This document shows positions 8,100-43,503 of a stretch of 64,000 nucleotides of DNA, in pieces. Under the pieces are notes generated by a model, which saw only the letters and a list, made by a program, of their open reading frames with translations, did no database searches and was not told the origin of the DNA. The position numbers were made by a program, and so were the translations under genes. The stretch comes from Dictyostelium discoideum (lineage: Eukaryota). The stretch lies in NCBI GenBank assembly GCA_000004695.1, contig CM000155.2, positions 576,001-640,000 on the forward strand. The letters run 5' to 3'. Position 1 is the first letter of the stretch. Every line of letters starts with the position of its first letter.

Positions 8100-8707
8100 T
8101 TTTTTTTATTTCTTTTTTTATTTATTGTATAATATTTTTCGAAAAATGAATTTTTTTTTTTTTTTTTTTCCTTTAAATACCCATTTAAATTTTTTTAAAT
8201 TTAATTTTTTAATTAATTTTTTTTTTAAAAATCTAAGTTGAACTTAAAAAAAAAAAAAGAAATTAAAAAAAAAAATTTCCTTACTTTTAAAAAAATAAAC
8301 TTTTTTAAAAATATAAACATTTCCATACAAGTGGAAATTTTTTTTTTTACTTCAACAATTCAATTGATTTTTACCTCTACTTTTCTTTGTCTCTAAATGT
8401 AAGATAATTGTTTTTTACCTATTTTAGAAATCCCAAAATGATTTTTATTTTTTTATTTTTTTTACTATTATTATCAAAAAATAAATGAAAAAAAAAATAT
8501 GAAAAAAAAAAATAATAATAATTAAAATTGGTTTTGGATTTCAAAATTCACATAATCAAATTCAAAGAAAATTAGAAAATTAGTATTTTTTTCTAAAAAA
8601 AAAAAAAAAATTCTAAAAAAAAAAAAAAATGAATCATTCACACAAAACTATTATTTTATGACTATTATTTAATATGTTTATATTTGTATATATAAATTTA
8701 TAACAAA

Positions 8708-9955
8708 ATGAATATTAATAGTAGTAGTAACGTAGAAGAATATCAATTAATTTATAAATTATATAAACTTGTATTTAGTAATATAGTATTGTCAAGATTA
8801 ATATTTGATTATGCAGCATTATATGAAAAGAATGATTATGTAGAATTTTATAGTATAAATATGTTGAGAAATTATCCAGAAAGAGAATATATAAGATCAT
8901 TATATTATTGCGATGAAGATCATATTTTAGAAATTGGTGATTTACCAATTGGTGGTGTATTAAAATTAGCAAGTATAGGGCACAGAGAAACCTTAATCAA
9001 AGGTGATACAATCCCATATGGAGTCGAAAAATTAAGATACAATTACGAAGAACATAATTCAACAGAAACTCCATTTCAAACATTACCAACAACCCTTCAC
9101 ACAATTAAAAATGCAAAAGTTGATTGTAAAAAAAGTCAAACTAATTTAATACCACCAAATATTACATCCCTTAAATTCTGTGGTTCTCCAAGTATATCAG
9201 ATATCAATCGTGATGGTGATGGTCGTGATGGTCGTGATGGTCGTGATGGTGGAGGTGGTGGTGATGGTGATGGTGATGGTGGTGGATATATTAAAATTCC
9301 AAATACTATTAAACATTTAGAATTCCATAAAAATTGGGATAATGATGGGAAAGTGTTGGGAAAAGGTGATATACCGGAGGGTGTAACTTGTTTAGATTTG
9401 GGTTTATACAAGTTAGAATTTAATCAAGGTGTTTTACCTGAAAGTTTAACAAAGTTAATGATTCGTTCTTATGATGAAACAAATGATAAGAATAATCAAA
9501 TATTGGATGATAATTTTCCAAAAAATATAAAAGATGTTACTATATTTAAATGTAAATTAAATATATCACCAAGTTTGAATTTATTTAAATTGAGTTCAAT
9601 TAAAATTTTACATATTATATTAGATTCTAAATTTAAAATTGAGGCAAATTCATTACCTTCAAGTTTAACAAATTTAAAAATTTCAACATATCAAAAATCT
9701 TTTACTGAAAATGTATTTCCAAATGGGTTACTTTCATTATCAATTAATCAAATTATTGAACAAGAAGGAGTATTACCTGAATCATTAACAAATTTAAATT
9801 TATCAGATTGCAATATTACAATAAAACAAGATAACTTAAATAAAATGATATCAATATTACCAGCTTCAATAAATTCATTAATATTACCCTCAAGATTTAA
9901 AAATTTAAAAATTAATAACATTAAATCTCCAACAATTAATTTAAAATATTATTAA
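8708..9955 (+). CDS. FNIP-repeat protein with a (GDGRDG)n Gly/Asp-rich insert
   Basis: Repeated FNQGVLPESLTKL / EQEGVLPESLTNL / IPEGVTCLDL motifs are typical of the Dictyostelium FNIP repeat. GDGRDGRDGRDGGGGGDGDGDGG tract in the middle. Confidence 0.7.
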   Translation: MNINSSSNVEEYQLIYKLYKLVFSNIVLSRLIFDYAALYEKNDYVEFYSINMLRNYPEREYIRSLYYCDEDHILEIGDLPIGGVLKLASIGHRETLIKGDTIPYGVEKLRYNYEEHNSTETPFQTLPTTLHTIKNAKVDCKKSQTNLIPPNITSLKFCGSPSISDINRDGDGRDGRDGRDGGGGGDGDGDGGGYIKIPNTIKHLEFHKNWDNDGKVLGKGDIPEGVTCLDLGLYKLEFNQGVLPESLTKLMIRSYDETNDKNNQILDDNFPKNIKDVTIFKCKLNISPSLNLFKLSSIKILHIILDSKFKIEANSLPSSLTNLKISTYQKSFTENVFPNGLLSLSINQIIEQEGVLPESLTNLNLSDCNITIKQDNLNKMISILPASINSLILPSRFKNLKINNIKSPTINLKYY

Positions 9956-10136: not shown

Positions 10137-10210
10137 GTTCGGATGGTGTAGTCGGTTATCACGAATCCTTAACACGGATTAGGTCGTGGGTTCGATTCCC
10201 GCTCTGAATA
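10137..10210 (+). tRNA. tRNA-Val (anticodon AAC)
   Basis: Cloverleaf folded by hand. Acceptor GTTCGGA/TCTGAAT (2 G.U pairs), D arm GTGT-AGTCGGTTA-TCAC, anticodon stem AATCC/GGATT with loop TTAACAC, variable loop AGGTC, T arm GTGGG-TTCGATT-CCCGC. It closely follows the human tRNA-Val-AAC layout. A T6 Pol III terminator lies 10 nt downstream. Confidence 0.85.
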
Positions 10211-10242
10211 CAACTAGCTTTTTTGGGTGATTTCACATATCA

Positions 10243-14301: not shown

Positions 14302-16187
<1,886 letters not shown>

Positions 16188-18806: not shown

Positions 18807-19355
18807 ATGATAAAAATAAATTATTTTAATTTAAAATCTATTTGGATTTTTATAATTATTTTTATATTTATTAAATTGAATGAAAATATTAAAATAGTTA
18901 TATCATCAGCAATACAACAATTAGATTGTCATGATGTTTTTATAAGTCATTTTAGTAATAGCAATAGTAATAATAAATATTTACAAGTTACAGTGATAAA
19001 TCCACAAGGTGTTGTATCATTTAGTAGAGATGCTATATCATATATTACAAAAGGAAATTACATTACCAATGTTAAATTATTCCCAACAGTATTTTCAAAT
19101 GGTGAACAATGTGTTCATAGTCAATTACAACCATTTAGTTTCGATAAAAAAAAGATTAGTTTTGGTGATAGAAATGGTATTATCATTAGTCCAGATGGTA
19201 CTTTCACTTATAAACCCATTTGGAGTACTGTTGGTGAATTAAAATTTAATTATTCATGTGATAAAAATATTTATTATGGTTGGAGTAAAAGTCATTTCAT
19301 TTCATTCTCTTTTATAACTGACCATGAATTAGGTTCACCTTGTACAAATCCTTAA
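18807..19355 (+). CDS. secreted protein of unknown function (signal peptide, 182 aa)
   Basis: ORF with an N-terminal hydrophobic segment IWIFIIIFIFIKL. No recognizable domain. Confidence 0.4.
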   Translation: MIKINYFNLKSIWIFIIIFIFIKLNENIKIVISSAIQQLDCHDVFISHFSNSNSNNKYLQVTVINPQGVVSFSRDAISYITKGNYITNVKLFPTVFSNGEQCVHSQLQPFSFDKKKISFGDRNGIIISPDGTFTYKPIWSTVGELKFNYSCDKNIYYGWSKSHFISFSFITDHELGSPCTNP

Positions 19356-19364
19356 ATAATAAAT

Positions 19365-19396
<32 letters not shown>

Positions 19397-19861
19397 TGTA
19401 CTATTAAAAAAAAAAAAAAAAAATAAAATTTAGATCTGTAAATTTTTCTTTTATTTTTTATTTATTATTAGCTAAAATTAAACAATGAACAATAAATTTT
19501 TATTTTTTTATCTTTTTAATTATGTTTCAAACTAATTCAAAGGATAAATAATCAATGTAATGTAAATTAAAAAAAAAAAAAAAAAACCCTCTGCTTAATT
19601 TTTTTTTATTAAACACCCAAAAACAAAATTTGAAATATAATTGTAATGGTGGTATTTTTTTATTTACTTGTAACACACTTTTTCCTTTGTGTTTGTGTTT
19701 TTTTTTTTTTTTTTTTTTTAACTCTAACTACTTTGGCACACTACACACAGTATGAATACTGTTTTCACACAACATAATTTTAATAAGAGATAAAAAACTG
19801 TTTTTTTTTTATTAAAAATTATTATTAATATTATTATTAATTATATTTTTTATTTTTAATA

Positions 19862-19892
<31 letters not shown>

Positions 19893-19949
19893 CCTATAAA
19901 TAAAATTTTTTTAAATTGATTTAATAATAACTTAAAATAATAAAAAATA

Positions 19950-22900
19950 ATGGAAAATCAAAGAATTTATAATATTAATTTAGATTTACTAAAAGATAAT
20001 ACATTAAATGGGAAAAATAATTATTATCCATCAACTTATTTAATTGAAGAATTAATAAAGATATTTCAAAATACTGATTTAATAATACCAATCTTTGAAT
20101 TTAAACCACCATTTATAATAGATAATGAATTGGAAAAATTTTATTTGCAAACAGAAATCATTGAAATTAATTCAAAAGAATATGAAATAAAATTCAATTT
20201 TAAAGATAATAAAACAAACCAATGGAATCAATTTTCAAAAGGAAATTTCTTACTATCAACTAATAATAATTATAATTTTAATGAAAAAGAAGTAGATTAT
20301 ATTGAAAATTTGAAATCTAAAATTTGTAATTTTACAAAAGTTTCAAAAGATGAATTTATAAATTTTATAGATGAAAAAACTGGATTAAAATATAATGGAA
20401 TTTTTAATAACAATATTAAAGATTGTTTAATTGGTGATAATTGTTCTTTACTAGTTGTATCATTGGAAGGATGTCAAAACCAAAATTTATTTTTTAATAA
20501 ACCTTTATTTAATATATTTTTAAGTGGTATGTTAATATTGGTTGATAGAAAATGTAAATTGAATTTTAATAAAATTGAAGGACTTAAATATTATTCACCA
20601 AACAATCTACCAAAAGATAAGGATCAATTAATTTCAGAAATTTATATTTATTCAAAATTAATTTCATCAAAAACAATTTCCTCAAATTCATATTCAGCAT
20701 CTGTAAAAGTTTTATTACCAGATGGAACTTTATTATTTGATATTGATAGAGTTGAATATAAATCATTAACATCTATTAAACCAATATCAATTGAACCACC
20801 AAATGATCATATGTATTCAGTTTATCAACAACCATTGAATTCATTAATTAAATCACCATTAAAATTTAAATCAAAATATCAAAATAAAATCAATGATTTA
20901 AATCATTTTCTAAATTACCAAGATGGTTCAACATCAAATTACAATGATTTCATTACAATTCAAAATCAAATTATTTCAAATATTGTAAAAGAAGTAATAA
21001 AACCAATTTTAAATGAAAAAATATTATTTAGAATATTAGATTTTCAAGGAGAAATAAATTCAACAACAATTATTTTAGAAAAGATAAATTCATTATTTGG
21101 AAAATTTCCAAATTTCCAAATTGATATTGAATATACAATAAACAATAAAAATCCACCAAAAAACAGTATACCAATTAAATTTGATAAAATTTTTAAAGAA
21201 AATAATTTAAATAATATATGTATAGTTATAAAAGATTTTAATTTAGTTAAAGATCAATTTAAAAATGGAGAAAATAACATTGAATCATATTATGATTTTA
21301 TAATAATATCAAATTTAAATTTAAATGAAAATAATTTAAAATCATTACTATTACAAATAAATCAATTATTAACTCCAAATGGTCATTTATTATTAATGGA
21401 ATTTAAATCAAAAATTTCATTTAACAAAAATAATTTAGAAAAATTATTAATTGAATGTAATTATTGTAATGATTTTGTAATTTTTTTAGATGATTCAACA
21501 CCATTATTGTTAATTCATACACAAAAACAAAATATACAATTATTTAAAAATATTTCAATCTCTAATGATTCAGAACAAATATTAAATAATTTATTATTTG
21601 AAAATATAATAATATTTGGTAATAATAATAATATTGACTTTAAATTGATTTATAAAAATAATGAAAATTATAAATCAATTTATCAAATTTCAAAAATTAA
21701 TGAAATAAATGAAAAATTAATAACCGATAAATCAATAATTTATTTTATAAAAACAATTGATAAACTTTTAATTGAAAATTTTAATGAAATAACTTTTGAA
21801 TATATTCAAATTAATCAAATGATAATGAAATTAAATAGTAAATGTAAACATGTTTTATTAGCAAAAGATATAAAAGGTGAAAATTATTTATCATCATCAG
21901 TAATAGGTGTTTCAAGATACTTTGATCAAATTCCTCAATTAGAATTATTTACAATAGATTTTGACAATAATTCAATTGATTCAATTTATAATGTTATTAA
22001 CGAATTAATTAATTCTAAAATTAATTGGTGGCAAAAAGAATTTACAATTAAAAATAATGAAATTTATTTTGAAATATTTAAAAAGGAATCAAAATTTATA
22101 AATAATATATTTAAATCAAATTCATATGAAAAAAATCATAATGAAATGATTACAAAAAAAAATTATAAAATTGTAGAAAAATATTTAGGTAATTCAATTT
22201 TAATTACAGGTCAATCAGGTTTTGTTTTAGAGATTTATAAATGGATAATTAATTATTCTGAAAGTGTTAAAAATATTATTATACTTTCAAAATCAAAATT
22301 AAAATGGGAATTAGAATTATTAATTAAAAAAAATAAACATATTAATTTCATTTTTAAAAGTATTGACGTTGGTAATACAAATGCAATGGAAGAAACAATA
22401 AATATAATTTTAAAAGAAAATTCAAATATAATTAATATTGATTCAATATTTCATTTCGCCGTTGAATATTGTACAACACCAGATCCTTTAGAAATTACAA
22501 TTAAAAATTTGGAGATTTCAAATTGTGCTAAAACAATGGGTGCAATTAATTTACATAATCAATCAGTTAAAAGAAATTGGAAATTAATTAATTTCATAAT
22601 GGCATCATCGGTTGCATCTTTATTTGGTGTAAATAGTCAATGTAGTTATTCAAGTTCATGTTATGTAATAGATTCATTGTCAGCATATAGAAAATCAATT
22701 GGATTACCATCGATTTGTACAAATTATGGTGTTTTAGGTGAAGCAGGACTATGTTCAAGAGTTCAAATGATACAAGATTTTACATTAAAATTGGGTTATG
22801 AACCATTACCTGCCAATATGGTATTAGGTGCATTAGATTTACAAATTCAAAACCAAAATATAGTCCCACTAGATTTTATACTCTCTAAACTTAATTTTAA

Positions 22901-22979
22901 CTTATTTAAAAACAGTAATCAAAGATTACTTAAAAAATTTGATTTTTTATTTAATTCAGTAAATATAAAAAAAGAATAA
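19950..22979 (+). CDS. free-standing polyketide-synthase fragment protein (DH-like / degenerate C-MT / KR-like region only; no KS, AT, ER or ACP)
   Basis: 1009-aa uninterrupted ORF in AT-rich DNA. The C-terminal 300 aa carry KR-domain signatures of Dictyostelium type I PKSs (ILITGQSGFVLEIYKWI..., FIMASSVASLFGVNSQCSYSSSCYVIDSLSAYRKSIGLPSICTNYGVLGEAG). The middle resembles a decayed C-methyltransferase (ILDFQGEINSTT..., TPNGHLLLMEF). AT-rich intergenic DNA lies on both sides, so it is not truncated by the window. Confidence 0.6.
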   Translation: MENQRIYNINLDLLKDNTLNGKNNYYPSTYLIEELIKIFQNTDLIIPIFEFKPPFIIDNELEKFYLQTEIIEINSKEYEIKFNFKDNKTNQWNQFSKGNFLLSTNNNYNFNEKEVDYIENLKSKICNFTKVSKDEFINFIDEKTGLKYNGIFNNNIKDCLIGDNCSLLVVSLEGCQNQNLFFNKPLFNIFLSGMLILVDRKCKLNFNKIEGLKYYSPNNLPKDKDQLISEIYIYSKLISSKTISSNSYSASVKVLLPDGTLLFDIDRVEYKSLTSIKPISIEPPNDHMYSVYQQPLNSLIKSPLKFKSKYQNKINDLNHFLNYQDGSTSNYNDFITIQNQIISNIVKEVIKPILNEKILFRILDFQGEINSTTIILEKINSLFGKFPNFQIDIEYTINNKNPPKNSIPIKFDKIFKENNLNNICIVIKDFNLVKDQFKNGENNIESYYDFIIISNLNLNENNLKSLLLQINQLLTPNGHLLLMEFKSKISFNKNNLEKLLIECNYCNDFVIFLDDSTPLLLIHTQKQNIQLFKNISISNDSEQILNNLLFENIIIFGNNNNIDFKLIYKNNENYKSIYQISKINEINEKLITDKSIIYFIKTIDKLLIENFNEITFEYIQINQMIMKLNSKCKHVLLAKDIKGENYLSSSVIGVSRYFDQIPQLELFTIDFDNNSIDSIYNVINELINSKINWWQKEFTIKNNEIYFEIFKKESKFINNIFKSNSYEKNHNEMITKKNYKIVEKYLGNSILITGQSGFVLEIYKWIINYSESVKNIIILSKSKLKWELELLIKKNKHINFIFKSIDVGNTNAMEETINIILKENSNIINIDSIFHFAVEYCTTPDPLEITIKNLEISNCAKTMGAINLHNQSVKRNWKLINFIMASSVASLFGVNSQCSYSSSCYVIDSLSAYRKSIGLPSICTNYGVLGEAGLCSRVQMIQDFTLKLGYEPLPANMVLGALDLQIQNQNIVPLDFILSKLNFNLFKNSNQRLLKKFDFLFNSVNIKKE

Positions 22980-23997
22980 TATATTAAATTAAACATTTTT
23001 TTAGACAAATAAATATTTTTTTTTTTATTGTCTCCAAGATAGAATATTCTGTTTTGGAGACATCTACAGTTATGAAAATTGCATTCATGTTTGATTTTTT
23101 TTTTTTTTTTTTTAGATTTTTTTTTTTTTAATCAATGTTTATCCATTAAAGGAATAGACTGTAATTAATAGGTTTATTTGTGAATTTTAAGTTAAAAAAA
23201 AACAAATAATATTTTGGTTTAAAGAAAAAATTATAATTTAATTTTTTTTTTTTGAAATGTAGCTATTTGTTTGAGATTTAGATTAGTTAAATAAATAAAA
23301 CTAAAATATAGAATTTAATTGATTTGATGAATTAGTCGAAGGATATAAAATTATAAGATATGGTTGGTACTGATTCAGGAATGCAATATACCTTACAAGT
23401 TAATTTCTTCATACAATTCACTTTTTTTTTTTTTTTTTTTTTTTGATATAAATAAACTATTGTAGTATACAATTAGTATGTTATTTTTATTTATTTATTT
23501 TAGGTCGTTTAGTTTTTGTGAATTTAAAATGGTACGTTATTTTAGATTAGGTAATTAATAATTAATTGGTGGTGTAATTGTTGGAATTGATTCATTTGTG
23601 TTTATGCTCCATTCTTTTTTAAATTTTTTGATGGTTTCGGACCATTGGGTTTCTTTTTGTGAGGTTGTTTTTAATTGAGTATTGGTTAAAGTTTGATAAT
23701 GTTCTTGAATATTCCAATCTTATTAACTTGTGCCATTTTGATTTTAATATATCATAATCTAGTGTTGTGTTGTTTATTTGGTTGTCCCAATTGTCAATTG
23801 ATTGAGTTATATAGATGTCAAATAATGATTTGCATAACCATATCCATATTTGGTGAATAACTAATGAGATTATGTTCCAATATGCATGTGTTCTGACTAG
23901 ATCAAGATTTGTGTATATATAATTCCAGTTGAACCTGTATTTTTTATATTGTGCGTTTTCTGCAAAATGAAAATTAATATTGATAGTTGGATCTGGT

Positions 23998-25077
23998 TTA
24001 AATGCTTTGTTGTTTGTGGTTTATAATGAGTGTGTATAATTTTGTTGTTTGGTTTTTTGTTAGTGACCAGTTTTTGTTTCCATTGCAATTTTTATATATA
24101 AAATATTTTAATTTGTCGTGGTTTATGAAGTTGATTGTGTGCTGACAATTGAAAAACAAATGACCATAGGGATCATTATTCATTTCATTGTTGCAAATGG
24201 GGCAAACTTTGTTGTGTAGATGATTAATCGGAAGACATCTAGCATGGAATCTTTGCATTGTATCACGCCCTTTTGGATCTTTTAATTTTTGAATTTTGAC
24301 AAATAGTTGGTCGTATGTGTATTTCCATAATAGTTGTATTGATTGTTGGTGCGAAGTAAGAAGTAGATCTGAATATTTCTTGCCAATATAGTCTTTTGAT
24401 TTACATTGGTGATTGTTGAGTATTGTCGAGTAGATTTCTTTGAGTGTTGGTGGTAGTGGAATATTATTTGTGTTTAATGTTTGAGAGGTTTGATTTTTTA
24501 TTAATATTGGTTGTAGGATTTGAACTTTATCTTTTAGATGTCCAATTTGAGTTGCATAGTTTTCCCATTCTCTTTTGATTTTTATAAGGTATGGAGAAGA
24601 GATTGATTTGTTGATGATTTGATCCATCCAACTTATCATGTATATTGAATTATTTGCCGATTTATGCATTTGTAAAAATCTGTTGTATATCCAAATCTTT
24701 TGAGCAACTTGTCGTAATTGTATATTCCACATACCCCAACCACCTTCTTTTAATGGTTTTAATGATCTATCATAACACATCAAAGGTATTTTTGCACGTG
24801 AATGGATGGTTGATGTGTTATTTTCAATGGAATTGGCATTGAGAGTTGGTGATTCAGAATTTGTGGGAGAATTCATAAACCATGAGATTAATTTATTAAT
24901 TTGAATTTCTTCATCTTTTGTAAATTCTTCAAGGTATGATAAATATGTTATTGGTGATAGTGAGTAGGTGTTTATGATGGTTGTTTTTGTTTTTAATGTT
25001 GTGCCACTAGTTTTCCATAGTACTAATGATTTATTCAATGTTTTCATTGTTTCTGGTAATTTCCATATGTAAACCAT
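23998..25077 (-). CDS. C-terminal part of ORF2 (zinc-knuckle domain), in a different frame from the RT part (frameshifted copy)
   Basis: 359-aa ORF overlaps the end of ORF 25031..27367 by 47 nt. It contains HARCLPINHLHNKVCPICNNEMNNDPYGHLFFNCQHT, which is conserved in the second element in this window. Confidence 0.6.
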   Translation of the reverse strand: MVYIWKLPETMKTLNKSLVLWKTSGTTLKTKTTIINTYSLSPITYLSYLEEFTKDEEIQINKLISWFMNSPTNSESPTLNANSIENNTSTIHSRAKIPLMCYDRSLKPLKEGGWGMWNIQLRQVAQKIWIYNRFLQMHKSANNSIYMISWMDQIINKSISSPYLIKIKREWENYATQIGHLKDKVQILQPILIKNQTSQTLNTNNIPLPPTLKEIYSTILNNHQCKSKDYIGKKYSDLLLTSHQQSIQLLWKYTYDQLFVKIQKLKDPKGRDTMQRFHARCLPINHLHNKVCPICNNEMNNDPYGHLFFNCQHTINFINHDKLKYFIYKNCNGNKNWSLTKNQTTKLYTLIINHKQQSI

Positions 25078-27367
25078 TATGATTAAAGAAATAGCTAAGG
25101 ACTCTTTCTGATTGATCTTTTTTGGTTATTGGTATTCTTTTTGATTGTGGAGTATTGTTTATTATGTGTTTATCAGTGATTTTGTGGGGGTTGATTTCTA
25201 TTATTGCACTTTTGTCAAAATTTAATGATGATGATGTTGAAGCGCAGAAATTATCGAAATGTTTGATTGATTGTTGTTGTTGTTCGTAGTTGATGTTGTA
25301 TGTTGTAGAGTCGTCTGCAAATTGGGTAAATTTGATTTTAATTTGTGGATTGGGTGAAATTGGTAAACCAATTATTGAATTGTCTGCATTTATTGTTCTT
25401 GCTAATATTTCAATTACAATTACAAATAAAGTGGCTTGTTTTACACCTTGTTTTACACCTCTTTTAATATCGAATTTTCTGGTTGTTTTACCATTAATTG
25501 AAATTTTTGCTTGTGAGTCAGATAATAGCTTGTGGATTAAATTTATTAATTTTATTGGTATACCAATATGAATTAATGTTCTTTTAATACTATCGTGAGA
25601 GATAGAATCAAATGCTTTAAAGAAGTCAAATAGTGTGATGATACCAGGGAGGTTTTTAGATTTGAGGTAGTTGATTAAATCATTGATGTTGATGATGTTG
25701 TCTATGATGAATCTGTGGGGTACGAAACCAGTTTGGTTGTTGTTGATGATGAAAGGAAGTATTCTCAGAAGACGTGCATTGATTACTTTTGAGAGGATCT
25801 TGTAATCAGTGTTTAGAAGTGTAATGGGACGACGATTTGATATGAGTAACGGGTTGCCTTTCTTGTATATTGTGTGTATAAGACCTTCGGTGAATTCTGT
25901 TGTGATGTGGTGAGGATTTTCTAGTATATCGTTGAATAATGTAGTGAGAATTGGTTTAACTTGGTTTAAATGATTAATGTAGAATGCATTTGTAACGCCA
26001 TCTGGACCGGGTGATTTGTTGGGGTTACAGGTTTTAATTGCAGCTTCAACTTCATCTTGTATAAATGGTGAGTCTAAACCATTCCAATATTCATTTTTTA
26101 TGATGGGCCATGTGTTTAGCATGAGCTGGTGAGTAATTGGACAACATATTTGTAAGCTATATAGATTTGTGTAGAATTCAACAAACGCATTTTCAATTTG
26201 GTCGGGGTCGGATGTAATGATGTTACCATATTGGATTGATTCAATTTTTGCATCTTTTGATCTTTTGTTTAGTATTGCTGATAGATACTTGCTAGGTATT
26301 TCTCCATTTATATGTTTTTTTAATATGTTTGTGTGGTTTTGATGTAGTTTGTTTTTGTTACATATAATATTGTATTCAGCGATGCATTGTTCTTCAAGAT
26401 GTTTGAATTTTGCTGCTTTTTCTAATAGTATTTGTTTTGCACGTTGAGTTTGTTTGTCTTTGTTATATTGATAGTTTTTTAGAGTTTTTATAATTTTTGA
26501 TTTTACTTTTGACCAGTTTGTAAATTGATTGATTGATGTGTTATTGTGATTAGTTATTAAATGATTGATAATATTGATTGCTTCATGGTCATTTGCAGTA
26601 CCAGGTGATAATATCCATCTTTTCTTATGTTTATTTATTTGAAAAGGTGAAGAAATTGTTGTTGATATTGGATTATGATCTGATAATGAAGATGGAATTT
26701 GGTGGACTTGTGTATATATATTTTCAGGGTCTATTCTATTGTATTGAGTATATATTCTATCTAATCTGTTGCCATGTGTATGAGTTGGAGTGTTTTTAAA
26801 TTCACCTTGATCAATTAGATGGTGTTGGTATGTGTAGGATTGGATAATATCATCTAATAGTGAATTGTCGTTGTGGATACAGTTGAAATCTCCTGCGATA
26901 ATAGATACATGTTGGGATTGGTTTGGTATTGGGTTTGTTGAGTGGTTGTGGAGAAGTGTTTGTAGTGAAGTTGCATATGAATTCTTTTTGATGGTATTAT
27001 TTGATGCTGGTGCGTAAATTCCAAGAATACCAATTGGTAATTGATTTGGAAATATAACGTCTGCTAAAATAGCTCTACCATCAATTGTTGATATGTGTTT
27101 GAGTTTGAGTGTGTTTGGGTTATGGTTAATGATGATTACACCATTTCCTCGTTTGGTGACAGAGATGATGTGATCGGGAAAATCATGTTTAAGTTGTAAT
27201 GGTGATGAATTGAGTTCAGTGAGTATTGAGATTGTTGGACGAGGTGGAAGTTTTGATATAAGTAGTTGTAGTGTGTCAACAGCTTTTTGGTAGGAATTGT
27301 GTTGATTGTTTGGGTTTTCAGTGAATCCTCTACAATTCCATGTTATAAAGTTGATTTTTGAGCTCAT
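25031..27367 (-). CDS. retrotransposon ORF2, AP-endonuclease + reverse transcriptase domains (778 aa)
   Basis: N-terminal EEP-nuclease-like MSSKINFITWNCRGF...IIAGDFNC. RT motifs PGIITLFDFFKAFDSISHD, KRGVKQG, QFADDSTTY. Confidence 0.8.
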   Translation of the reverse strand: MSSKINFITWNCRGFTENPNNQHNSYQKAVDTLQLLISKLPPRPTISILTELNSSPLQLKHDFPDHIISVTKRGNGVIIINHNPNTLKLKHISTIDGRAILADVIFPNQLPIGILGIYAPASNNTIKKNSYATSLQTLLHNHSTNPIPNQSQHVSIIAGDFNCIHNDNSLLDDIIQSYTYQHHLIDQGEFKNTPTHTHGNRLDRIYTQYNRIDPENIYTQVHQIPSSLSDHNPISTTISSPFQINKHKKRWILSPGTANDHEAINIINHLITNHNNTSINQFTNWSKVKSKIIKTLKNYQYNKDKQTQRAKQILLEKAAKFKHLEEQCIAEYNIICNKNKLHQNHTNILKKHINGEIPSKYLSAILNKRSKDAKIESIQYGNIITSDPDQIENAFVEFYTNLYSLQICCPITHQLMLNTWPIIKNEYWNGLDSPFIQDEVEAAIKTCNPNKSPGPDGVTNAFYINHLNQVKPILTTLFNDILENPHHITTEFTEGLIHTIYKKGNPLLISNRRPITLLNTDYKILSKVINARLLRILPFIINNNQTGFVPHRFIIDNIININDLINYLKSKNLPGIITLFDFFKAFDSISHDSIKRTLIHIGIPIKLINLIHKLLSDSQAKISINGKTTRKFDIKRGVKQGVKQATLFVIVIEILARTINADNSIIGLPISPNPQIKIKFTQFADDSTTYNINYEQQQQSIKHFDNFCASTSSSLNFDKSAIIEINPHKITDKHIINNTPQSKRIPITKKDQSERVLSYFFNHNGLHMEITRNNENIE

Positions 27368-28572
27368 ACCTTACTAGGTTTGGCAGCACCAGTATTGACT
27401 GGTTGTGTAGTCAGGGCATTGCTGCTTCTTCTTGTATTTATTGTATTTGGAGTTGGTGCACTTGGTTTGTTTGGTTGAGATTGTAGAGGTTTTTGTGGTA
27501 CAATTGTTGGATCGGTTGGATTGCTCATTGATAATGAGTTTTTCCCGTTATTATTATTTGAAGAATCACTTTTGTGTGAAATTTCATTATTGTTTTGGGA
27601 TTGATTGTTAATATCAAGTGATTCATTTAGTATAGCTTTTGAACCACTATTTTGAAGTGAGTTATTATTGCGATTGGAATTTGCAATTTCGTTGATTGGT
27701 GGGGTGTTAATGTTGTTTTTTGGTGGTTGATTGTTTTTGTTCATGTTTGGGTTTGTGATGGCATTTTTTATAGTTGTTGCCATATCTGCATTTTTTGCAT
27801 GTTGAATTTTGTGTTTAGTGACACTACGTGTTGCAGCTTTGATATATCTTGTGATACCAGATGGTTGTTCGATCTTTTGATCAACAATGTTGTGTGTGTG
27901 ATCAATTAGATGATATGTTATAATGTAGCTTTTAAACGCAACAGCATATGAGTATGTGACAGTAAATGATTCAATTGATGTACAACTGGTGAATTTAGTG
28001 AGGTTGTTTGTAATTGCATCGTTTGCATGTTTGGGTGAGTACGTTTTAATGAATGTTTTAATGATTGCATAATCATTTGATGATATATCGAATCTATAGT
28101 TGAGTTTGTCGATATTTAGTGCAAGTTGGTTTTGAAGGTTGATTATTGAAGTTAATTTATCAACGTTGCAATTTACGAAGGCAGTTGCACCAATTATTTT
28201 GAATGCTGATGGCGACAGTATATCTTCGAAGAGTTTGTGAATGTTTTTGTGAATTTGTTGAATTCTTGTGTCATCTTTTGAGGTTAATTCTTCACGGATG
28301 TGTGGTTGATTAAAGTAACACTTAATGTTGATGGTGTTATTGTTTTTTTCTAAGAAAGAGAGTGGTCTTGTGATTGATGGAGGTGCAATGATATCTAATT
28401 GATTATCAAGTCCTTTGTTTAGTGAGAGTTGGTTTGTTGGGGTTTGTTTTTTAGGTGTGTCGATTTTTGCACTTTTATTTTTTGTTGTTGAGGTTGTGGA
28501 GGTATTATTTGTATTGGTCGTGTTGTTATCTGTATGATTTAACTGTAATTCAGTTGAGTGATCATCAGCCAT
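27364..28572 (-). CDS. retrotransposon ORF1 (402 aa)
   Basis: ORF track entry. Ser/Thr/Asn-rich and basic. Its stop overlaps the ORF2 ATG as ATGA. Confidence 0.7.
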   Translation of the reverse strand: MADDHSTELQLNHTDNNTTNTNNTSTTSTTKNKSAKIDTPKKQTPTNQLSLNKGLDNQLDIIAPPSITRPLSFLEKNNNTINIKCYFNQPHIREELTSKDDTRIQQIHKNIHKLFEDILSPSAFKIIGATAFVNCNVDKLTSIINLQNQLALNIDKLNYRFDISSNDYAIIKTFIKTYSPKHANDAITNNLTKFTSCTSIESFTVTYSYAVAFKSYIITYHLIDHTHNIVDQKIEQPSGITRYIKAATRSVTKHKIQHAKNADMATTIKNAITNPNMNKNNQPPKNNINTPPINEIANSNRNNNSLQNSGSKAILNESLDINNQSQNNNEISHKSDSSNNNNGKNSLSMSNPTDPTIVPQKPLQSQPNKPSAPTPNTINTRRSSNALTTQPVNTGAAKPSKV

Positions 28573-28763
28573 TGTTGAAAAGTATATAGGACGATAGCCC
28601 TTGCTTTAATGAGCAAAAAAAGGGTAAAATTAAGAGGAATGAATGTGGCGGTGAAGATATAACAGTGATTTATTTATTATATGTATAAATTCTCGTTTAT
28701 TTCTTTGTTTTTTCGGTTTTTTTTTCGTTTTTTTCGTAAAAAATATATTTCCCAAAAACAATG

Positions 28764-28843
28764 TGGAAGATGAGGGACTCGAACCCACGACCCCGGAGGA
28801 TAGAGCCTAAATCTATTGTCTTAACCATCTCGACCAATCTTCC
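28764..28843 (-). tRNA. tRNA-Leu (anticodon UAG), class II with long variable arm
   Basis: The reverse complement folds by hand. Acceptor GGAAGAT/ATCTTCC, D arm GTC-GAGATGGTTAA-GAC, anticodon stem ATAGA/TCTAT with loop TTTAGGC, variable arm CCTCCGGGGTC, T arm GTGGG-TTCGAGT-CCCTC (one T-T mismatch). The layout matches human tRNA-Leu-TAG. A T5 terminator lies downstream on the minus strand. Confidence 0.75.
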
Positions 28844-30323: not shown

Positions 30324-33300
30324 TCATATGAATTGATCAAAAGATATAATATTTGGGAGAGATGATTCTGGAATACAATAGTAATTAGCTGTTGTTTTTC
30401 TTAGCTTGATCGTTGAGGTGAGAAGGATCTTAGGATCTTTGAAATTATTATGGTCTTTTGCTGATAAGTTTTTCAGATCTTTTGCTTTTTTGATGTATTC
30501 TAGAGTGGCCAATTTGTGCCATTTCTTTAGAAGGGAGCTGTATGATAATGATTCATTTGTTAAAGGATCTTCACTGTATATTTGATTGCAAATCCAAATC
30601 CAAATGTTGTGGAGGATAAGGGCCATTAGGTTTCTATATGCGAATGATCTGGTTAGATCATAGTCTATTGCTTTATAGTTCCATTCAAAGTATTCTTTGT
30701 GGAATCTGTGGTTGGCGTAATCTGCATTCACTTTTTGATCTTTTTTGGCTGTCGGTGATAATTTTGGAGTTATTCTATTAATGAAATTGTTATTTTGCCT
30801 AATTCTTGTATGGTGCCAGTTTTTACCTTTGCCTGTGGTAATATAGATGAAATTTTTGAGTTTATTTATTTTTATGAATTGTTTTGTTTTCTTGCATGAG
30901 AAGAACAGGTGACCGTATGGGTCTTTGCTCATATCTTCTTTGCAGAGTGGGCATTGTTTGTTGTGAAGATAGTTTATTGGAAGGCATCTGGCATGGAATC
31001 TAAACATTGTGTCTCTTGTTTTAGGGTCTTTTATCTTCAGTATGTTGTTGAAGAGTTGATTATAGCTGTAGCCTCTTAAGTTTAGAGATGATTGGAATTC
31101 CGTTTTAGGGATGGTTGGATTTTGGTCTTGAATTGTGGTATACCATTCTGCCAGTGAAAGTGGTTGTCCATTTTCGTTTTTTATGGATGTGAGATTATTG
31201 TTGAAGATTGCTTTTTTTATTCTTATTTTGTTCCATTCGTCTAAGTTTTCTTTTAGGTATCTGGATGTGAATTTGTTTTTTTGGATCTGATATTCCCAGC
31301 TTTTGTGATGAGATGAGTTTGTTTGTTTGGTTTCTAGTGCTAGGATGAACTGGTTTATGATCCAAAGTTTCTGCGCCAGTTGTCTCAATTCTATATTCCA
31401 AATGTTCCAGCCCCCTACTTTTAGTGGGTATCTTGCTCTTTTGGTTCTCATTAAATTAATAACTTGAAATCCACTAGCATTTTTGTTGTTTGGTGCCGAT
31501 AAAAACCATTCGACTAATTTATTGATTTGGTTTAATTCCTCTTCCTTAAAGTTCTCTACATATGAATAGTAGGTTAATTTAGAGAGTGCGAATGCTTTGA
31601 GGATGTTGGTTTTGGTTTTTATTGTTGAGTCAGTGGTTTTCCATAGTACTAAGGATGATCTTATTGTGTTTAATATTTCTGGCATTTTTCTTGTTATCCC
31701 TTTACCTGTGAAGAAGTATCCCAAGTATCTTTCTGGATTTGTAGATATTGGAATTCTTTGGTTGGTATTGTCTGGGTTGCCTATAAGAATTGATGAAGAT
31801 TTGTCGATGTTTAGTTTTGAGGAAGTGGCTTTGCAAAATGAATTGAAGTGTTGTAGTACTAATTCAAGTTGTTGAGAGTCTGGGACCATTGAAGCCGAGT
31901 CGTCTGCAAAGCTTTGGAATTTCTCTCTGTGGTTGCTGTTGTTTAGAGGAAGGCCAGTAATTCGATCATCTTGTAAAATTTTTCTAGCTAAAGCCTCTAT
32001 TACAAGGACGAACAGTGTGGGTGATAGTGGATCTCCTTGTTTAACTCCTCTTTTGATCTCAAAGGGTATAGTAATTTCAATTCTTGCTTCAGATTTGGTG
32101 AGTAGATTCATTATCAGGTTGATTATATTGGTTGGAATGTTGATGTGTTGTAGTGATCTAAGTATTGAACCGTGTGAGATCGAGTCAAAAGCTTTTTCGA
32201 AATCATATAGTGTAATTATTCCGTTAATTCTTTTATCATTACAATAGTTGATTAATTCGTTCATTGATATGATATTATCTAGAATGAATCTGCCTGGTAC
32301 GAAACCTTTTTGATTGTGGTTGATCACTTTCGTTAGTATTGGGATTATTCTATTGTTTATTAGCTTTGAGTGGATTTTATATATCCAGTTAGCCAGTGTA
32401 ATTGGTCTTCTGTTTTTGATTAGTTCGGGGTCTCCCTTTTTAGGTATCGTGATAATGAGGCCTTCTTTGTAATTTTTGCTAATTAGATGAGGATTTCTTA
32501 GAGTGTCGTTGAATGCTGAGGCCAGTATTGGAGCTAGTTTTTCTTTGTGTGTTATGTAGAATAAGTTTGGAATTCCATCTGGGCCTGGAGATTTGTGTGG
32601 GTTCAATTGTTTTATTACTTCTAGGATCTCTTGTGATGTGAATTCATTTTCAAGGTTGTCCCATGTTGAGTCCCTGGTCACTGTCCAATTTTCCAACATT
32701 TCATAATGAGATGGTGGGTCATCTTCTTTGTAGTCATAAAGATTTGAGTAATATTTTACGTATTCTTCTTCGATCAATTCCTGTTTGTTGATTGTTCTAC
32801 CTTGTGCATCTTTTACTGCGTTGATGGTGAAATCATTGTGTCTTTTCTTGATTCTCGCGGAGATGTACTTGAGTGAGGTTTCTTCGCAATAGTTGTTCAA
32901 TTCTTGTTTAAGTTGTTCTTCTCTTTTTTTAGATTCATTTATTGCTGAAAGGGTTGCGAAGGCTTGGTCTTTAAATTCTGTCTCTAGTAGGGAGATTAGA
33001 TTTTTGATGTTTGCCTTATTGTTGTAGTCATTTTGTTTTTGAAATTCTGTGTATAGTTGTTTTATTTTGTTTAGTAAGCTGTTGAGTTGAGAGAAGGAAA
33101 TAGAGTTATGGTTGGATGACAGCTCCCTTGAATAATCGTTAAGTAGGAAGTCTATTTTCTTAAGCATTATGCTTGAGAGGATTGAGGATTTTTTTAATCT
33201 CCATCTGCGCTTGTTCATCTGTATGTTGGGTAGAGTGAAGGTGGTTGATAGGAAGTTGTGATCTGATAGAGGTATGTCATTAATTTTTGGGGGGATTAGG

Positions 33301-34016
33301 TTCCTTAAGTATAATTGGCTGTAGTTGATTATGCTATTGTTAAGGTATATTCTGTCTAGTCTCCTTTCCAAGATTCTTGTGAGGTTATTGTTTGTGTTGT
33401 GTATCGTTCTTGAGAAGGTGGGTCTTTTATTTAGTTGGTCCATATCCATTAGGTTATTTGAAATTCTGATGGCTTCGATTACTGTGGCCATCTCATCTGG
33501 GGATTGTGTTGTCAAGTTGCCTTGGTCATCATTTGATGTGTGATTGTCATTGAAGTCTAAACAATTGAAGTCGCCTGCTATGATGTCGATGTTTTTTTTA
33601 GGGTTAGACGTTAGGTTGTGGTATTGGTTGTTGAAGTGTTTGTTTAGTGTTGAAGCTAGTATTTTTCTTTTATCAGGTTGGGCCGGGGCGTATATGGCCA
33701 AGATTCTCGTTGTGGTATCTTTTATTAGAATGTCTGATATTATTAGTCTACCTTCTATTATGAATATTGGTGAGAGTTTTATGTTTTGGTTGTTGTGGTT
33801 TAGTATTCCTATTCCGTTGCCTCTTTTGGTTGCGCTAATGATGGAGCCAGGGAATAGCTGGTGTGCTTGTGTTGCGTCGGCGTTGAGTTCATTGACTATG
33901 GTTAGTGCCAATGAGTTTGGGGGGGATTGGGATTTGATAAAGTCTGTTTTGTTTTTGAAGGAGGTGTCAGTGCCCCAACCTCTGACATTCCATTGGTTGA
34001 TTTTGATTACTACCAT
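30324..34016 (-). CDS. retrotransposon ORF2: AP-endonuclease + reverse transcriptase + zinc-knuckle, intact 1230 aa
   Basis: MVVIKINQWNVRGWG...IIAGDFNC (EEP nuclease). RT motifs NGIITLYDFEKAFDSISH, KRGVKQGDPLSPTLFVL, FADDSA. C-terminal CPLC...DPYGHLFFSC. Confidence 0.85.
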   Translation of the reverse strand: MVVIKINQWNVRGWGTDTSFKNKTDFIKSQSPPNSLALTIVNELNADATQAHQLFPGSIISATKRGNGIGILNHNNQNIKLSPIFIIEGRLIISDILIKDTTTRILAIYAPAQPDKRKILASTLNKHFNNQYHNLTSNPKKNIDIIAGDFNCLDFNDNHTSNDDQGNLTTQSPDEMATVIEAIRISNNLMDMDQLNKRPTFSRTIHNTNNNLTRILERRLDRIYLNNSIINYSQLYLRNLIPPKINDIPLSDHNFLSTTFTLPNIQMNKRRWRLKKSSILSSIMLKKIDFLLNDYSRELSSNHNSISFSQLNSLLNKIKQLYTEFQKQNDYNNKANIKNLISLLETEFKDQAFATLSAINESKKREEQLKQELNNYCEETSLKYISARIKKRHNDFTINAVKDAQGRTINKQELIEEEYVKYYSNLYDYKEDDPPSHYEMLENWTVTRDSTWDNLENEFTSQEILEVIKQLNPHKSPGPDGIPNLFYITHKEKLAPILASAFNDTLRNPHLISKNYKEGLIITIPKKGDPELIKNRRPITLANWIYKIHSKLINNRIIPILTKVINHNQKGFVPGRFILDNIISMNELINYCNDKRINGIITLYDFEKAFDSISHGSILRSLQHINIPTNIINLIMNLLTKSEARIEITIPFEIKRGVKQGDPLSPTLFVLVIEALARKILQDDRITGLPLNNSNHREKFQSFADDSASMVPDSQQLELVLQHFNSFCKATSSKLNIDKSSSILIGNPDNTNQRIPISTNPERYLGYFFTGKGITRKMPEILNTIRSSLVLWKTTDSTIKTKTNILKAFALSKLTYYSYVENFKEEELNQINKLVEWFLSAPNNKNASGFQVINLMRTKRARYPLKVGGWNIWNIELRQLAQKLWIINQFILALETKQTNSSHHKSWEYQIQKNKFTSRYLKENLDEWNKIRIKKAIFNNNLTSIKNENGQPLSLAEWYTTIQDQNPTIPKTEFQSSLNLRGYSYNQLFNNILKIKDPKTRDTMFRFHARCLPINYLHNKQCPLCKEDMSKDPYGHLFFSCKKTKQFIKINKLKNFIYITTGKGKNWHHTRIRQNNNFINRITPKLSPTAKKDQKVNADYANHRFHKEYFEWNYKAIDYDLTRSFAYRNLMALILHNIWIWICNQIYSEDPLTNESLSYSSLLKKWHKLATLEYIKKAKDLKNLSAKDHNNFKDPKILLTSTIKLRKTTANYYCIPESSLPNIISFDQFI

Positions 34017-37951: not shown

Positions 37952-40504
<2,553 letters not shown>

Positions 40505-42095: not shown

Positions 42096-42162
<67 letters not shown>

Positions 42163-43497: not shown

Positions 43498-43503
<6 letters not shown>
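41344..43503 (+). CDS. RING-type + C2HC (TRAF-like) zinc-finger protein with Pro/Gln/Tyr-rich middle and C-terminal pentapeptide-repeat domain; 3 exons: 41344..41364, 41557..41872, 41953..43503 (exon 3 contains assembly gap 42332..42431)
   Basis: Exon 1 MADDGEL ends at the GTATGC donor. Exon 2 encodes LECVICYCPLIDPVEH...CKQCVCTLKSCPICR and CNVCKKETTRKEIKSHVESC. It ends at the ATTA|GTATGT donor (phase 1). Exon 3 follows the acceptor CACAG|AG. Its C-terminus is built from 5-residue repeats (CIFQECNINSSSFIESAFIDCIFMNCNINGCDFSKS...). The frame across the gap cannot be checked. Confidence 0.55.
42332..42431. other. assembly gap (100 N)
   Basis: N run. Confidence 0.95.

What the first reader, a model, noticed from the sequence alone, without database searches (positions are those of the whole stretch)
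19950..22979. Orphan polyketide-synthase fragment gene: 1009-aa open frame with dehydratase-like, decayed methyltransferase and ketoreductase-like regions but no KS/AT/ACP
Dictyostelium type I PKS genes are 8-10 kb single units. Here a 3-kb ORF carries only the middle-to-late processing domains. The KR signatures are clear and the MT region is recognisable but degenerate. It starts and ends in AT-rich intergenic DNA, so it is not clipped by the window or by a gap. An ORF this long is very unlikely to stay open by chance at ~80% AT. So it is either a recent partial duplication that has not yet decayed, or a retained trans-acting KR-type tailoring protein.
Basis: partly seen in the sequence, partly recalled or inferred. 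Interest (0 to 1): 0.65.

Follow-up and report, generated by a model that had tools for sequence, protein, structure and literature searches.

The report
Conserved KS-less polyketide-synthase remnant gene
A 1009-residue Dictyostelium gene is the leftover processing part of a giant polyketide synthase, with a dead dehydratase, a decayed methyltransferase and an intact-looking ketoreductase; selection has kept it for a long time, so it is a working gene of unknown role and not fresh debris.

Summary
Window 19950..22979 (+) is an uninterrupted 1009-aa ORF, identical to D. discoideum AX4 XP_635328.1 / Q54EB2. It matches the DH, MT/psiKR and KR parts of Dictyostelium Pks16 and has no KS, AT, ER, ACP or reductase domain. 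No such coding sequence occurs elsewhere in the 64-kb window.

It is not a recent duplicate:
- Same-length, single-exon orthologues sit at the syntenic site in two divergent D. discoideum-lineage genomes and in D. dimigraforme (63-66% identity).
- The nearest full-length paralogues (pks10/pks21 group) are only 36-45% identical.
- No stop codons are seen where 21-121 are expected under neutrality, and every indel is in frame.
- dN/dS is 0.17-0.21 in the KR, 0.24-0.63 in psiKR and 0.4-0.8 in the DH-like and MT-like parts.

The DH catalytic His and Asp and the MT glycine loop are lost. The KR keeps its NADPH loop and catalytic Lys, Ser and Tyr, but has Cys at the nearly invariant YxxxN Asn.

Best reading: a domesticated PKS remnant that works as a free-standing ketoreductase, or KR-fold protein, on vestigial scaffolds. 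Catalysis, expression and any partner are untested. Interest is moderate.

The parts
19895..19902 (+). TATAAATA box followed by a T-run, about 50 bp upstream of the ATG; putative core promoter of an independent transcription unit
   Evidence: Read directly from the sequence. The promoter role is inferred from the known Dictyostelium promoter layout and was not tested.
19950..22979 (+). Complete single-exon CDS, 1009 aa plus TAA; identical to D. discoideum AX4 XP_635328.1 / EAL61786.1 / UniProt Q54EB2
   Evidence: in-frame TAA at 19941-19943
19950..20819 (+). DH-like region (aa 1-290), N-terminally clipped and catalytically dead. The His of HxxxGxxxxP is Asn17 (19998-20000). The Asp motif LDSCLHG reads FNIFLSG (aa 187-193, 20508-20528). 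The hairpin DNKTNQWN (aa 86-93) and the DH/KR interface CNFTKV (aa 126-131) are retained.
   Evidence: Pks16 DH match; alignment with paralogues; no Pfam DH hit; dN/dS 0.42-0.69; landmarks from PMC12828403
20907..21584 (+). Degenerate methyltransferase-like region (aa 320-545). SAM motif I EFGGGxxS reads DFQGEINS (aa 362-371), and about 26 residues are deleted after PNGHLLL.
   Evidence: Pfam Methyltransf_23 below cutoff; alignment; dN/dS 0.50-0.83
21585..22169 (+). psiKR, the structural KR subdomain (aa 546-740). It includes the junction (about aa 705-716, nt 22062-22097) where the ER domain of paralogues is cleanly absent.
   Evidence: dN/dS 0.24-0.63
22170..22976 (+). Catalytic KR subdomain (aa 741-1009), ending in the KR-ACP linker. 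NADPH loop ILITGQSG (aa 750-757), K861 (22530-22532), S887 (22608-22610), Y900 (22647-22649), and Cys904 in place of the YxxxN Asn (22659-22661).
   Evidence: Pfam KR E 1.9e-17; motifs; dN/dS 0.17-0.21
23008..23013 (+). AATAAA 29 bp after the stop codon; candidate polyadenylation signal
   Evidence: sequence only, function inferred

Best explanation
This is an intact, separately transcribed gene that has been retained in evolution. It encodes only the 'modifying region' of a reducing type I iterative PKS of the pks10/pks21 group: dead DH, vestigial MT, psiKR and KR. It has no KS, AT, ER, ACP or terminal reductase.

It arose before the D. discoideum / D. dimigraforme split. The source was a PKS copy at this locus that lost its 5' condensing half, its ER and its 3' ACP-R end at domain boundaries.

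Selection now acts mainly on the two-part KR (psiKR plus catalytic KR). The protein therefore most likely works as a free-standing NADPH-binding ketoreductase that acts in trans on a carbonyl substrate. That substrate could be tethered to the ACP of one of the full-length synthases, or it could be free or CoA-bound. The DH-like and MT-like parts survive as structural scaffold or docking surface.

- Shown: the architecture, the orthology, the age, and purifying selection graded by domain.
- Inferred: transcription, NADPH binding, catalysis and action in trans.
For: **Architecture and domain-boundary truncation:**

**Independent unit:** an upstream in-frame stop, TATA plus T-run, a 13.5% GC intergenic interval, and a conserved same-strand neighbour gene ending at 19355.

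**Orthologues:** 1025, 1019 and 1012 aa, all single-exon and all at the syntenic site.

**Selection:**
- No nonsense codons where about 21, 37 and 121 are expected under neutrality.
- All 11-27 indel events per pair are in frame. In the flanks, most indels are not multiples of 3, and identity is 75-83% between AX4 and the other D. discoideum isolate against 95% in the CDS.
- dN/dS for the KR is 0.17 (95% CI 0.11-0.25); psiKR 0.32; DH-like 0.58 (0.41-0.83); MT-like 0.50 (0.32-0.76) for AX4 against D. dimigraforme. No bootstrap replicate out of 1000 reached 1.
- The fragment's KR diverges between genomes about as slowly (96.3% and 92.5% identity) as the KR of full-length pks21 (95-96%).

**KR residues:** the TGQSG loop, the LSKS lysine, K861, S887 and Y900 are conserved in all four orthologues. 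psiKR is the second most constrained part, as expected if it supports the KR fold.

**Origin:** the clade has 100% bootstrap and is sister to the ER-containing pks10/pks21 group. A frameshifted PKS relic with an ER start lies just upstream in D. dimigraforme.
Against: - Position 904 is Cys in all four orthologues. It is Asn in 103 of 108 long synthases. Cys is seen in three full-length enzymes, at least two of them in the sister group. The effect on catalysis is unknown.
- N2279 of the Pks16 DH/KR interface is Lys here.
- According to PMC12828403, NADPH is predicted to bind each KR in the modelled D. discoideum PKSs, so no synthase obviously needs a KR supplied in trans.
- No PKS gene lies within the 64-kb window.
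- I found no transcript or peptide evidence. Q54EB2 is absent from two proteomics supplements.
- The AlphaFold model was too poor to assess the active site (pLDDT 41).
- The overall dN/dS of about 0.4 is high for an enzyme.
Confidence: 0.6

Rival explanations
1. Non-catalytic pseudoenzyme. The protein is retained but no longer reduces anything. It would act as an NADPH-binding or ACP-binding regulator, decoy or scaffold that modulates one or more full-length PKSs, or it would have some unrelated role.
For: - Asn to Cys at the near-invariant YxxxN position in all four orthologues.
- DH and MT are clearly dead yet still under some constraint, with dN/dS CI upper bounds of 0.83 and 0.76.
- The DH hairpin that docks the ACP in DdPKS models is retained (DNKTNQWN).
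- The published models predict NADPH bound to each KR of the D. discoideum PKSs, so a spare catalytic KR is not obviously needed.
Against: - Lys, Ser, Tyr, the glycine loop and the 2'-phosphate lysine are all kept over dS of about 0.6, with the KR dN/dS as low as in working synthases.
- Cys at this position also occurs in full-length synthases of the sister group.
- The protein lacks KS and ER, the main dimerisation domains of these synthases according to the Pks16 paper, so heterodimer 'poisoning' is not an obvious mechanism.
Confidence: 0.3
2. Recent partial duplication or unprocessed pseudogene whose frame has simply not yet been hit by mutations.
For: - DH and MT catalytic motifs are destroyed.
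- GC is low (18%) for a coding region.
- PKS fragments and relics are common in these genomes.
- dN/dS of the MT-like part approaches 1 in the closest pairs (CI 0.50-1.28).
Against: - Orthologues in four genomes down to 63-66% identity, with the nearest paralogue at 45% or less.
- P(no stop) under neutrality is 1e-9 to 2e-53.
- All indels are in frame, and the CDS is far more conserved than its flanks.
- Start and stop positions are conserved.
Confidence: 0.05
3. Gene-model artefact: the ORF is merely the 3' part of a normal 8-10 kb PKS gene whose KS-AT exons lie upstream, or whose ACP was cut off by the downstream retrotransposon.
For: - The source annotation calls it 'beta-ketoacyl synthase family protein'.
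- A retroelement lies about 0.5-1 kb downstream.
Against: - No KS, AT, ER, ACP or R similarity anywhere else in 64 kb, or in the 10-kb flanks of two orthologous loci.
- Only 594 bp separate it from a conserved upstream gene, and an in-frame TAA lies 2 codons before the ATG.
- The C-terminus is identical in position in genomes that have no retroelement there.
Confidence: 0.02

Closest known systems
Modifying region of Dictyostelium type I iterative PKSs (Pks16 structure 9NJU; pks10 DDB_G0271662; pks21 DDB_G0282029)
   Same: - Collinear homology over DH, MT/psiKR and KR (E 1e-85 to Pks16; 36-45% identity to the pks10/pks21 group).
- It has the same TGQSG NADPH loop and KR Lys, Ser and Tyr, the same DH hairpin, and the DH/KR interface residues F, T and W.
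   Different: - It lacks KS, AT, ER, ACP and the C-terminal reductase.
- The DH His and Asp and the MT glycine loop are lost.
- YxxxN Asn is Cys, and interface N2279 is Lys.
- It is 1009 aa long instead of 2000-3500 aa.
LovC, the trans-acting enoylreductase partner of the iterative lovastatin synthase LovB (PDB 7CPX/7CPY; PMC6260248)
   Same: The concept is the same: a free-standing reductive tailoring protein that would serve an iterative highly reducing PKS in trans. This is a resemblance in how it may work, and it is inferred only.
   Different: - LovC is an ER (MDR fold), not a KR.
- LovC is encoded in the same gene cluster as a synthase whose own ER is inactive (own knowledge).
- Here no PKS lies within 64 kb, and no D. 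discoideum PKS is known to lack a KR.
Vestigial pseudo-domains of animal FAS and related synthases (psiME, psiKR)
   Same: There is precedent for inactive methyltransferase and structural KR subdomains being retained as scaffold around an active KR. Here the constraint is graded in the same way, KR > psiKR > MT-like.
   Different: In FAS these pseudo-domains are embedded in a complete megasynthase. Here the scaffold and KR exist alone, and the DH is dead as well.
Stop-interrupted pks pseudogenes of D. discoideum (five of the 40 counted pks genes, PMC9618038)
   Same: It is PKS-derived and incomplete relative to a working synthase.
   Different: Those pseudogenes are defined by stop codons that interrupt the frame. 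This ORF is uninterrupted in four genomes and is under purifying selection.

Membership tests
Type I iterative polyketide synthase (DdPKS) | Ketosynthase domain (PF00109/PF02801) | tested here: not met
   No Pfam hit in the ORF. tblastn with nine dictyostelid PKS proteins, eight of them full-length, finds none in the 64-kb window.
Type I iterative polyketide synthase (DdPKS) | Acyltransferase domain (PF00698) | tested here: not met
Type I iterative polyketide synthase (DdPKS) | Acyl carrier protein domain with a phosphopantetheinyl serine | tested here: not met
   The protein ends in the KR-ACP linker. There is no ACP similarity downstream.
PKS/FAS ketoreductase (complex SDR, PF08659) | Match to the KR family model above the curated cutoff | tested here: met
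   64.2 bits against a cutoff of 22.6 in AX4. The three orthologues score 64.7-70.5 bits.
PKS/FAS ketoreductase (complex SDR, PF08659) | Glycine-rich NADPH loop and a basic residue for the 2'-phosphate | tested here: met
   ILITGQSG and LSKS are identical to those of full-length paralogues and conserved in all 4 orthologues. Binding itself was not tested.
PKS/FAS ketoreductase (complex SDR, PF08659) | Catalytic Lys, Ser and Tyr | tested here: met
   K861, S887 and Y900 are conserved in all four orthologues.
PKS/FAS ketoreductase (complex SDR, PF08659) | Asn of the YxxxN motif | tested here: not met
   Cys904 in all four orthologues. The position is Asn in 103 of 108 long synthases and Cys in 3.
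PKS/FAS ketoreductase (complex SDR, PF08659) | NADPH-dependent reduction of a beta-keto substrate | not testable with these tools
   This needs an enzyme assay.
PKS dehydratase (double hotdog, PF14765/PF21089) | Catalytic His in HxxxGxxxxP | tested here: not met
   Asn17 in the three discoideum-lineage sequences. His is still present in D. dimigraforme.
PKS dehydratase (double hotdog, PF14765/PF21089) | Catalytic Asp in the DxxxQ/H motif | tested here: not met
   LDSCLHG reads FNIFLSG or LNIILSG in all four orthologues.
PKS dehydratase (double hotdog, PF14765/PF21089) | Sequence or fold homology to DH | tested here: met
   - i-E 2e-25 to the Pks16 DH.
- The family profile hits CurK, CurF and PksJ DH structures.
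- No Pfam DH hit for the fragment itself.
- The AF2 model was too poor to confirm the fold.
SAM-dependent C-methyltransferase of PKS | Motif I glycine loop (E/DxGxGxG) and a family-model match above cutoff | tested here: not met
   The loop reads DFQGEINS, and the best Pfam score is 16-22 bits against a cutoff of 27.
Pseudogene (non-functional relic) | Disrupted reading frame, or neutral evolution (dN/dS about 1, frame-breaking indels) | tested here: not met
   The frame is intact in 4 genomes, and all indels are in frame. Overall dN/dS is 0.37-0.56, with no bootstrap replicate out of 1000 reaching 1.
Trans-acting PKS tailoring subunit (LovC-like concept) | A demonstrated partner synthase lacking the corresponding activity, or physical or genetic linkage to one | tested here: not met
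   No PKS lies within 64 kb. PMC12828403 reports NADPH predicted bound to each KR in its models of the D. discoideum PKSs. Physical interaction is not testable here.

The most novel reading that the evidence does not exclude
The protein is a true trans-acting ketoreductase subunit. It would dock, through its retained DH-hairpin and KR surfaces, onto the ACP of one or more of the 40 iterative Dictyostelium synthases and change their reduction programme. That would make it the first PKS-derived trans-acting tailoring partner described in Amoebozoa, and a KR counterpart of LovC.
Probability: 0.2. Interest if true: 0.65.

Novelty: new variant of a known kind. Interest (0 to 1): 0.42.

Why it matters
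Dictyostelium carries about 40 giant iterative PKS genes, and the products of nearly all of them are unknown. Inventories count only KS-containing genes and dismiss the rest as debris. This locus shows that a synthase stripped of its condensing half, ER and carrier domain can survive for a long time under selection. Its KR is constrained as tightly as in working synthases.

If the KR is active, it is an unlisted player in amoebal polyketide or lipid chemistry, and a small, expressible handle (1009 aa) on KR specificity in this family. If it is inactive, it is a natural example of a megasynthase fragment domesticated as a pseudoenzyme. The D. dimigraforme relic next door also gives a snapshot of how such fragments are born from tandem PKS arrays.

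Tried and rejected
1. **AlphaFold2 of the full protein.** Only the nine sequences the tool would accept could be used, giving mean pLDDT 41 and pTM 0.32. That is too poor for fold search or active-site inspection, so I did not use it.
2. **Word-index homologue search.** All three runs were swamped by low-complexity words. The profile run failed to recover even pks21, whose segment was in the query. No conclusion about absence from D. citrinum, D. firmibasis or D. purpureum can be drawn.
3. **Literature.** No paper mentions XP_635328, EAL61786 or Q54EB2. Zucko et al. 2007 is not held. Two proteomics supplements lack Q54EB2. The supplements of the two PNAS PKS papers are not held. I therefore have no expression evidence either way.
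4. **Descent from an ER-less synthase such as the D. citrinum KS-AT-DH-MT-KR-ACP enzyme (P0015).** Rejected, because trees place the fragment with the ER-containing pks10/pks21 group. The ER was therefore lost separately.
5. **ACP cut off by the downstream retrotransposon.** Rejected, because the stop position is conserved in genomes without that insertion.
6. **NCBIfam.** It gave only partial, far sub-threshold PKS hits.
Full report
**1. Observation**

The window is Dictyostelium-like DNA, with 15-35% GC throughout. ORF 19950..22979 (+) runs from ATG to TAA and encodes 1009 aa, exactly as described.
- A TAA lies two codons upstream of the ATG.
- The 594 bp back to the previous gene are 13.5% GC and carry 11-18 stops per frame.
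- A TATAAATA box (19895-19902) plus a T-run precedes an A-rich ATG context, and an AATAAA follows the stop.
- With the ORF's own base composition, a 1009-codon open frame has probability about 9e-50. The other five frames hold 58-167 stops.

The protein is identical to D. discoideum AX4 XP_635328.1 / EAL61786.1 / UniProt Q54EB2. It is annotated 'beta-ketoacyl synthase family protein' and sits on a 3.60-Mb record.

**2. Domain content**

Pfam passes only the KR domain (PF08659, E 1.9e-17, aa 750-929). Methyltransf_23 is sub-threshold, and no DH model hits. The three orthologues behave the same way.

phmmer against solved structures gives D. discoideum Pks16 (9NJU) at E 1e-85, in three collinear stretches:
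- query 13-342 to Pks16 964-1277 (DH);
- query 321-740 to Pks16 1406-1857 (MT/psiKR);
- query 716-996 to Pks16 2193-2486 (KR).

Pks16 residues 1857-2193, the ER, are skipped, as are 1-960 (KS-AT) and the ACP.

A profile of the fragment plus trimmed paralogues also hits CurK, CurF and PksJ dehydratases, PKS C-methyltransferases (AprA, PsoF, CurJ, citrinin PKS) and many KRs.

The nearest full-length relatives have the architecture KS-AT-DH-MT-ER-KR-ACP-R. In the alignment the fragment:
- starts a few residues into the DH;
- has 51 residues where paralogues have a 360-416-residue ER insert;
- stops in the KR-ACP linker.

tblastn with nine dictyostelid PKS proteins, eight of them full-length, finds no KS, AT, ER, ACP or R similarity anywhere else in the 64-kb window. 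The eight full-length queries also find none in the flanks of two of the three orthologous loci. Neighbouring ORFs are unrelated to PKS: a WD40 protein, small ORFs with no family match, and retroelements.

**3. Catalytic motifs**

*DH*
- The His of LKGHxVKGKxYFPG is Asn17 in the three discoideum-lineage sequences. It is still His in D. dimigraforme.
- The Asp motif LDSCLHG reads FNIFLSG or LNIILSG in all four (Asp to Asn, His to Ser).
- A 7-residue deletion precedes the His motif.

*MT*
- Motif I EFGGGxxS reads DFQGEINS.
- About 26 residues are deleted after PNGHLLL.

*KR*
- The NADPH loop ILITGQSG, the LSKS lysine, K861, S887 and Y900 are conserved in all four.
- The Asn of YxxxN is Cys904 in all four. 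Among 108 long synthases this position is Asn in 103 and Cys in 3. P0008 and P0011, both in the sister group, are two of the three.

*Landmarks from the Pks16 paper (PMC12828403)*
- The DH beta-hairpin DxK(S/T)NEWI is present as DNKTNQWN.
- The DH/KR interface residues F1073, T1074 and L1076 appear as CNFTKV, and W2272 is kept.
- N2279 is Lys here.

**4. Evolution**

Same-length, single-exon orthologues exist in another 'D. discoideum' isolate (1025 aa, 90-92% identity), in 'D. cf. discoideum' (1019 aa, 84-86%) and in D. dimigraforme (1012 aa, 63-66%). Synteny is conserved on both sides: five upstream genes and two to three downstream. AX4 has about 15 kb of retroelements inserted downstream.

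An exhaustive HMMER search shows that the next-best relatives are full-length dictyostelid PKSs at 36-45% identity. These include pks21, pks10 and D. firmibasis proteins. In NJ trees of both the KR and the DH regions the four sequences form a 100%-bootstrap clade on a long stem. That clade lies beside the pks10/pks21/D. firmibasis group, with support of 61% (KR) and 100% (DH). It does not group with the ER-less D. citrinum synthase. The truncation is therefore old, and the ER was lost separately.

Nei-Gojobori dN/dS:

| Region | Range over pairs | AX4 vs D. dimigraforme (95% CI) |
|---|---|---|
| KR | 0.17-0.21 | 0.17 (0.11-0.25) |
| psiKR | 0.24-0.63 | 0.32 |
| DH-like | 0.42-0.69 | 0.58 (0.41-0.83) |
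| MT-like | 0.50-0.83 | 0.50 (0.32-0.76) |
| Whole ORF | 0.37-0.56 | 0.37 |

- For AX4 against D. dimigraforme, no bootstrap replicate out of 1000 reached 1 in any region.
- In the closest pairs the MT-like part cannot be distinguished from neutral (CI 0.50-1.28).
- 638 single-base changes in the ORF would create a stop. With dS as the neutral rate, about 21, 37 and 121 nonsense changes are expected on the three pairwise paths, and none is seen.
- All 11-27 indel events per pair are in frame.
- Between AX4 and the other D. discoideum isolate the flanks are 75-83% identical, against 95% for the CDS. Most flank indels are not multiples of three.
- As a control, the KR of full-length pks21 is 95-96% identical between the same genomes, and the fragment's KR is 96.3% and 92.5% identical.

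**5. Origin clue**

In D. dimigraforme only, the interval just upstream of the orthologue (L001 8144-9356) holds a frameshifted PKS relic. It runs:
- post-AT linker, which the fragment gene lacks;
- DH C-terminal half, about 40% identical to the fragment and to paralogues alike;
- psiKR, 83-90% identical to the neighbouring D. dimigraforme fragment but only 68-73% to AX4;
- the start of an ER, which the fragment gene also lacks.

The locus therefore once carried an ER-containing PKS, either the parent or a tandem sibling. Its psiKR seems to have been homogenised with the neighbouring gene after speciation. Nothing of this relic remains in AX4.

**6. Interpretation**

The gene is a retained PKS remnant.

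Constraint is concentrated on the KR and on its structural partner psiKR. The cofactor loop and three of the four catalytic residues are intact. The most likely role is therefore a free-standing NADPH-dependent ketoreductase acting in trans, with the DH and MT remnants serving as scaffold.

Several facts weigh against a simple 'supplies a missing KR' model:
- the Asn to Cys change;
- the absence of any linked PKS;
- the published models predict NADPH bound to each KR of the D. discoideum PKSs.

The main rival is a non-catalytic, KR-fold pseudoenzyme. Transcription, cofactor binding, catalysis and any partner are inferred and have not been shown.

**7. Comparison with what is known, and novelty**

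The protein is not a member of the type I PKS family, because KS, AT and ACP were tested and are absent. It meets the KR family model and most KR motifs, but not the YxxxN Asn. It fails the DH and MT catalytic tests, and it fails the criteria for a pseudogene.

Its closest functional analogue is the LovB/LovC arrangement, in which a trans-acting enoylreductase serves an iterative synthase (PMC6260248). That case involves a different fold and is cluster-linked.

The literature held here counts 40 pks genes, including five stop-interrupted pseudogenes (PMC9618038). It does not discuss this KS-less gene.

The gene model itself is already public. What is new is the evidence that it is an old, selectively maintained DH*-MT*-psiKR-KR protein. 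I rate it a new variant of a known kind, of moderate interest.

Noticed in passing
L001 8144-9356 (+) (D. dimigraforme, just upstream of the orthologue at L001 10001-13039): A frameshifted PKS relic: post-AT linker, DH C-half, psiKR and the start of an ER. Its psiKR is 83-90% identical to the neighbouring fragment gene, but its DH part is only about 40% identical. This suggests a decayed parent or tandem sibling with later gene conversion. It is annotated there as two small genes (7841-8728, 8803-9383).
   Followed up: partly
window 23998-28572 (-) and tRNA-Leu(UAG) 28763-28843 (-): A non-LTR retrotransposon with three ORFs (402, 778 and 359 aa). The middle ORF carries APE endonuclease plus reverse transcriptase. 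Its 5' end lies about 190 bp from the 3' side of a tRNA-Leu gene, the pattern of Dictyostelium tRNA-targeted TRE elements (own knowledge). It is absent from the orthologous loci.
   Followed up: partly
window 30324-34981 (-): A second retroelement: a 1230-aa ORF with a reverse-transcriptase domain plus an adjacent 321-aa ORF. GC is higher here (35-41%) with strong GC skew. Together with the first element it forms about 15 kb of insertions between the fragment gene and its ancestral downstream neighbour (window 37952-40504).
   Followed up: no
window 18807-19355 (+): A small 182-aa ORF with a hydrophobic N-terminus and no Pfam match. It is 91-94% identical in all four genomes and always lies immediately upstream of the fragment gene. 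It is far more conserved than the fragment gene itself.
   Followed up: partly
window 19950-22979 and its public annotation: The public product name 'beta-ketoacyl synthase family protein' is a misnomer, because the protein has no ketosynthase domain. A name such as 'PKS-derived ketoreductase-like protein' would fit better.
   Followed up: yes
L003 and L002 versus window 19356-23500: The genome labelled 'D. discoideum' (ACTFIW) differs from AX4 by about 5% in this CDS and 17-25% in the flanking non-coding DNA. The 'D. cf. discoideum' genome (ACTFIY) differs by about 9% in the CDS and is 83% identical in the 5' flank; its 3' flank is essentially unalignable (48.5%). That is a lot of divergence for sequences named as one species.
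   Followed up: no
L002 13562-19583 (-): In 'D. cf. discoideum' the region downstream of the orthologue holds LTR-retrotransposon genes (gag-protease, integrase). These are different elements from the ones inserted in AX4, so this intergenic slot is a repeated insertion target.
   Followed up: no
window 10137-10211 (+): A tRNA-Val(AAC) gene; its surroundings were not examined.
   Followed up: no
window 15001-16000 and 42001-43000: Two 1-kb bins show unusually strong negative GC skew (-0.61 and -0.64) and GC of about 0.31-0.32. They overlap ORFs 14775-16187 (+) and 42175-43503 (+), possibly as C-rich or A-rich homopolymer-coding tracts.
   Followed up: no
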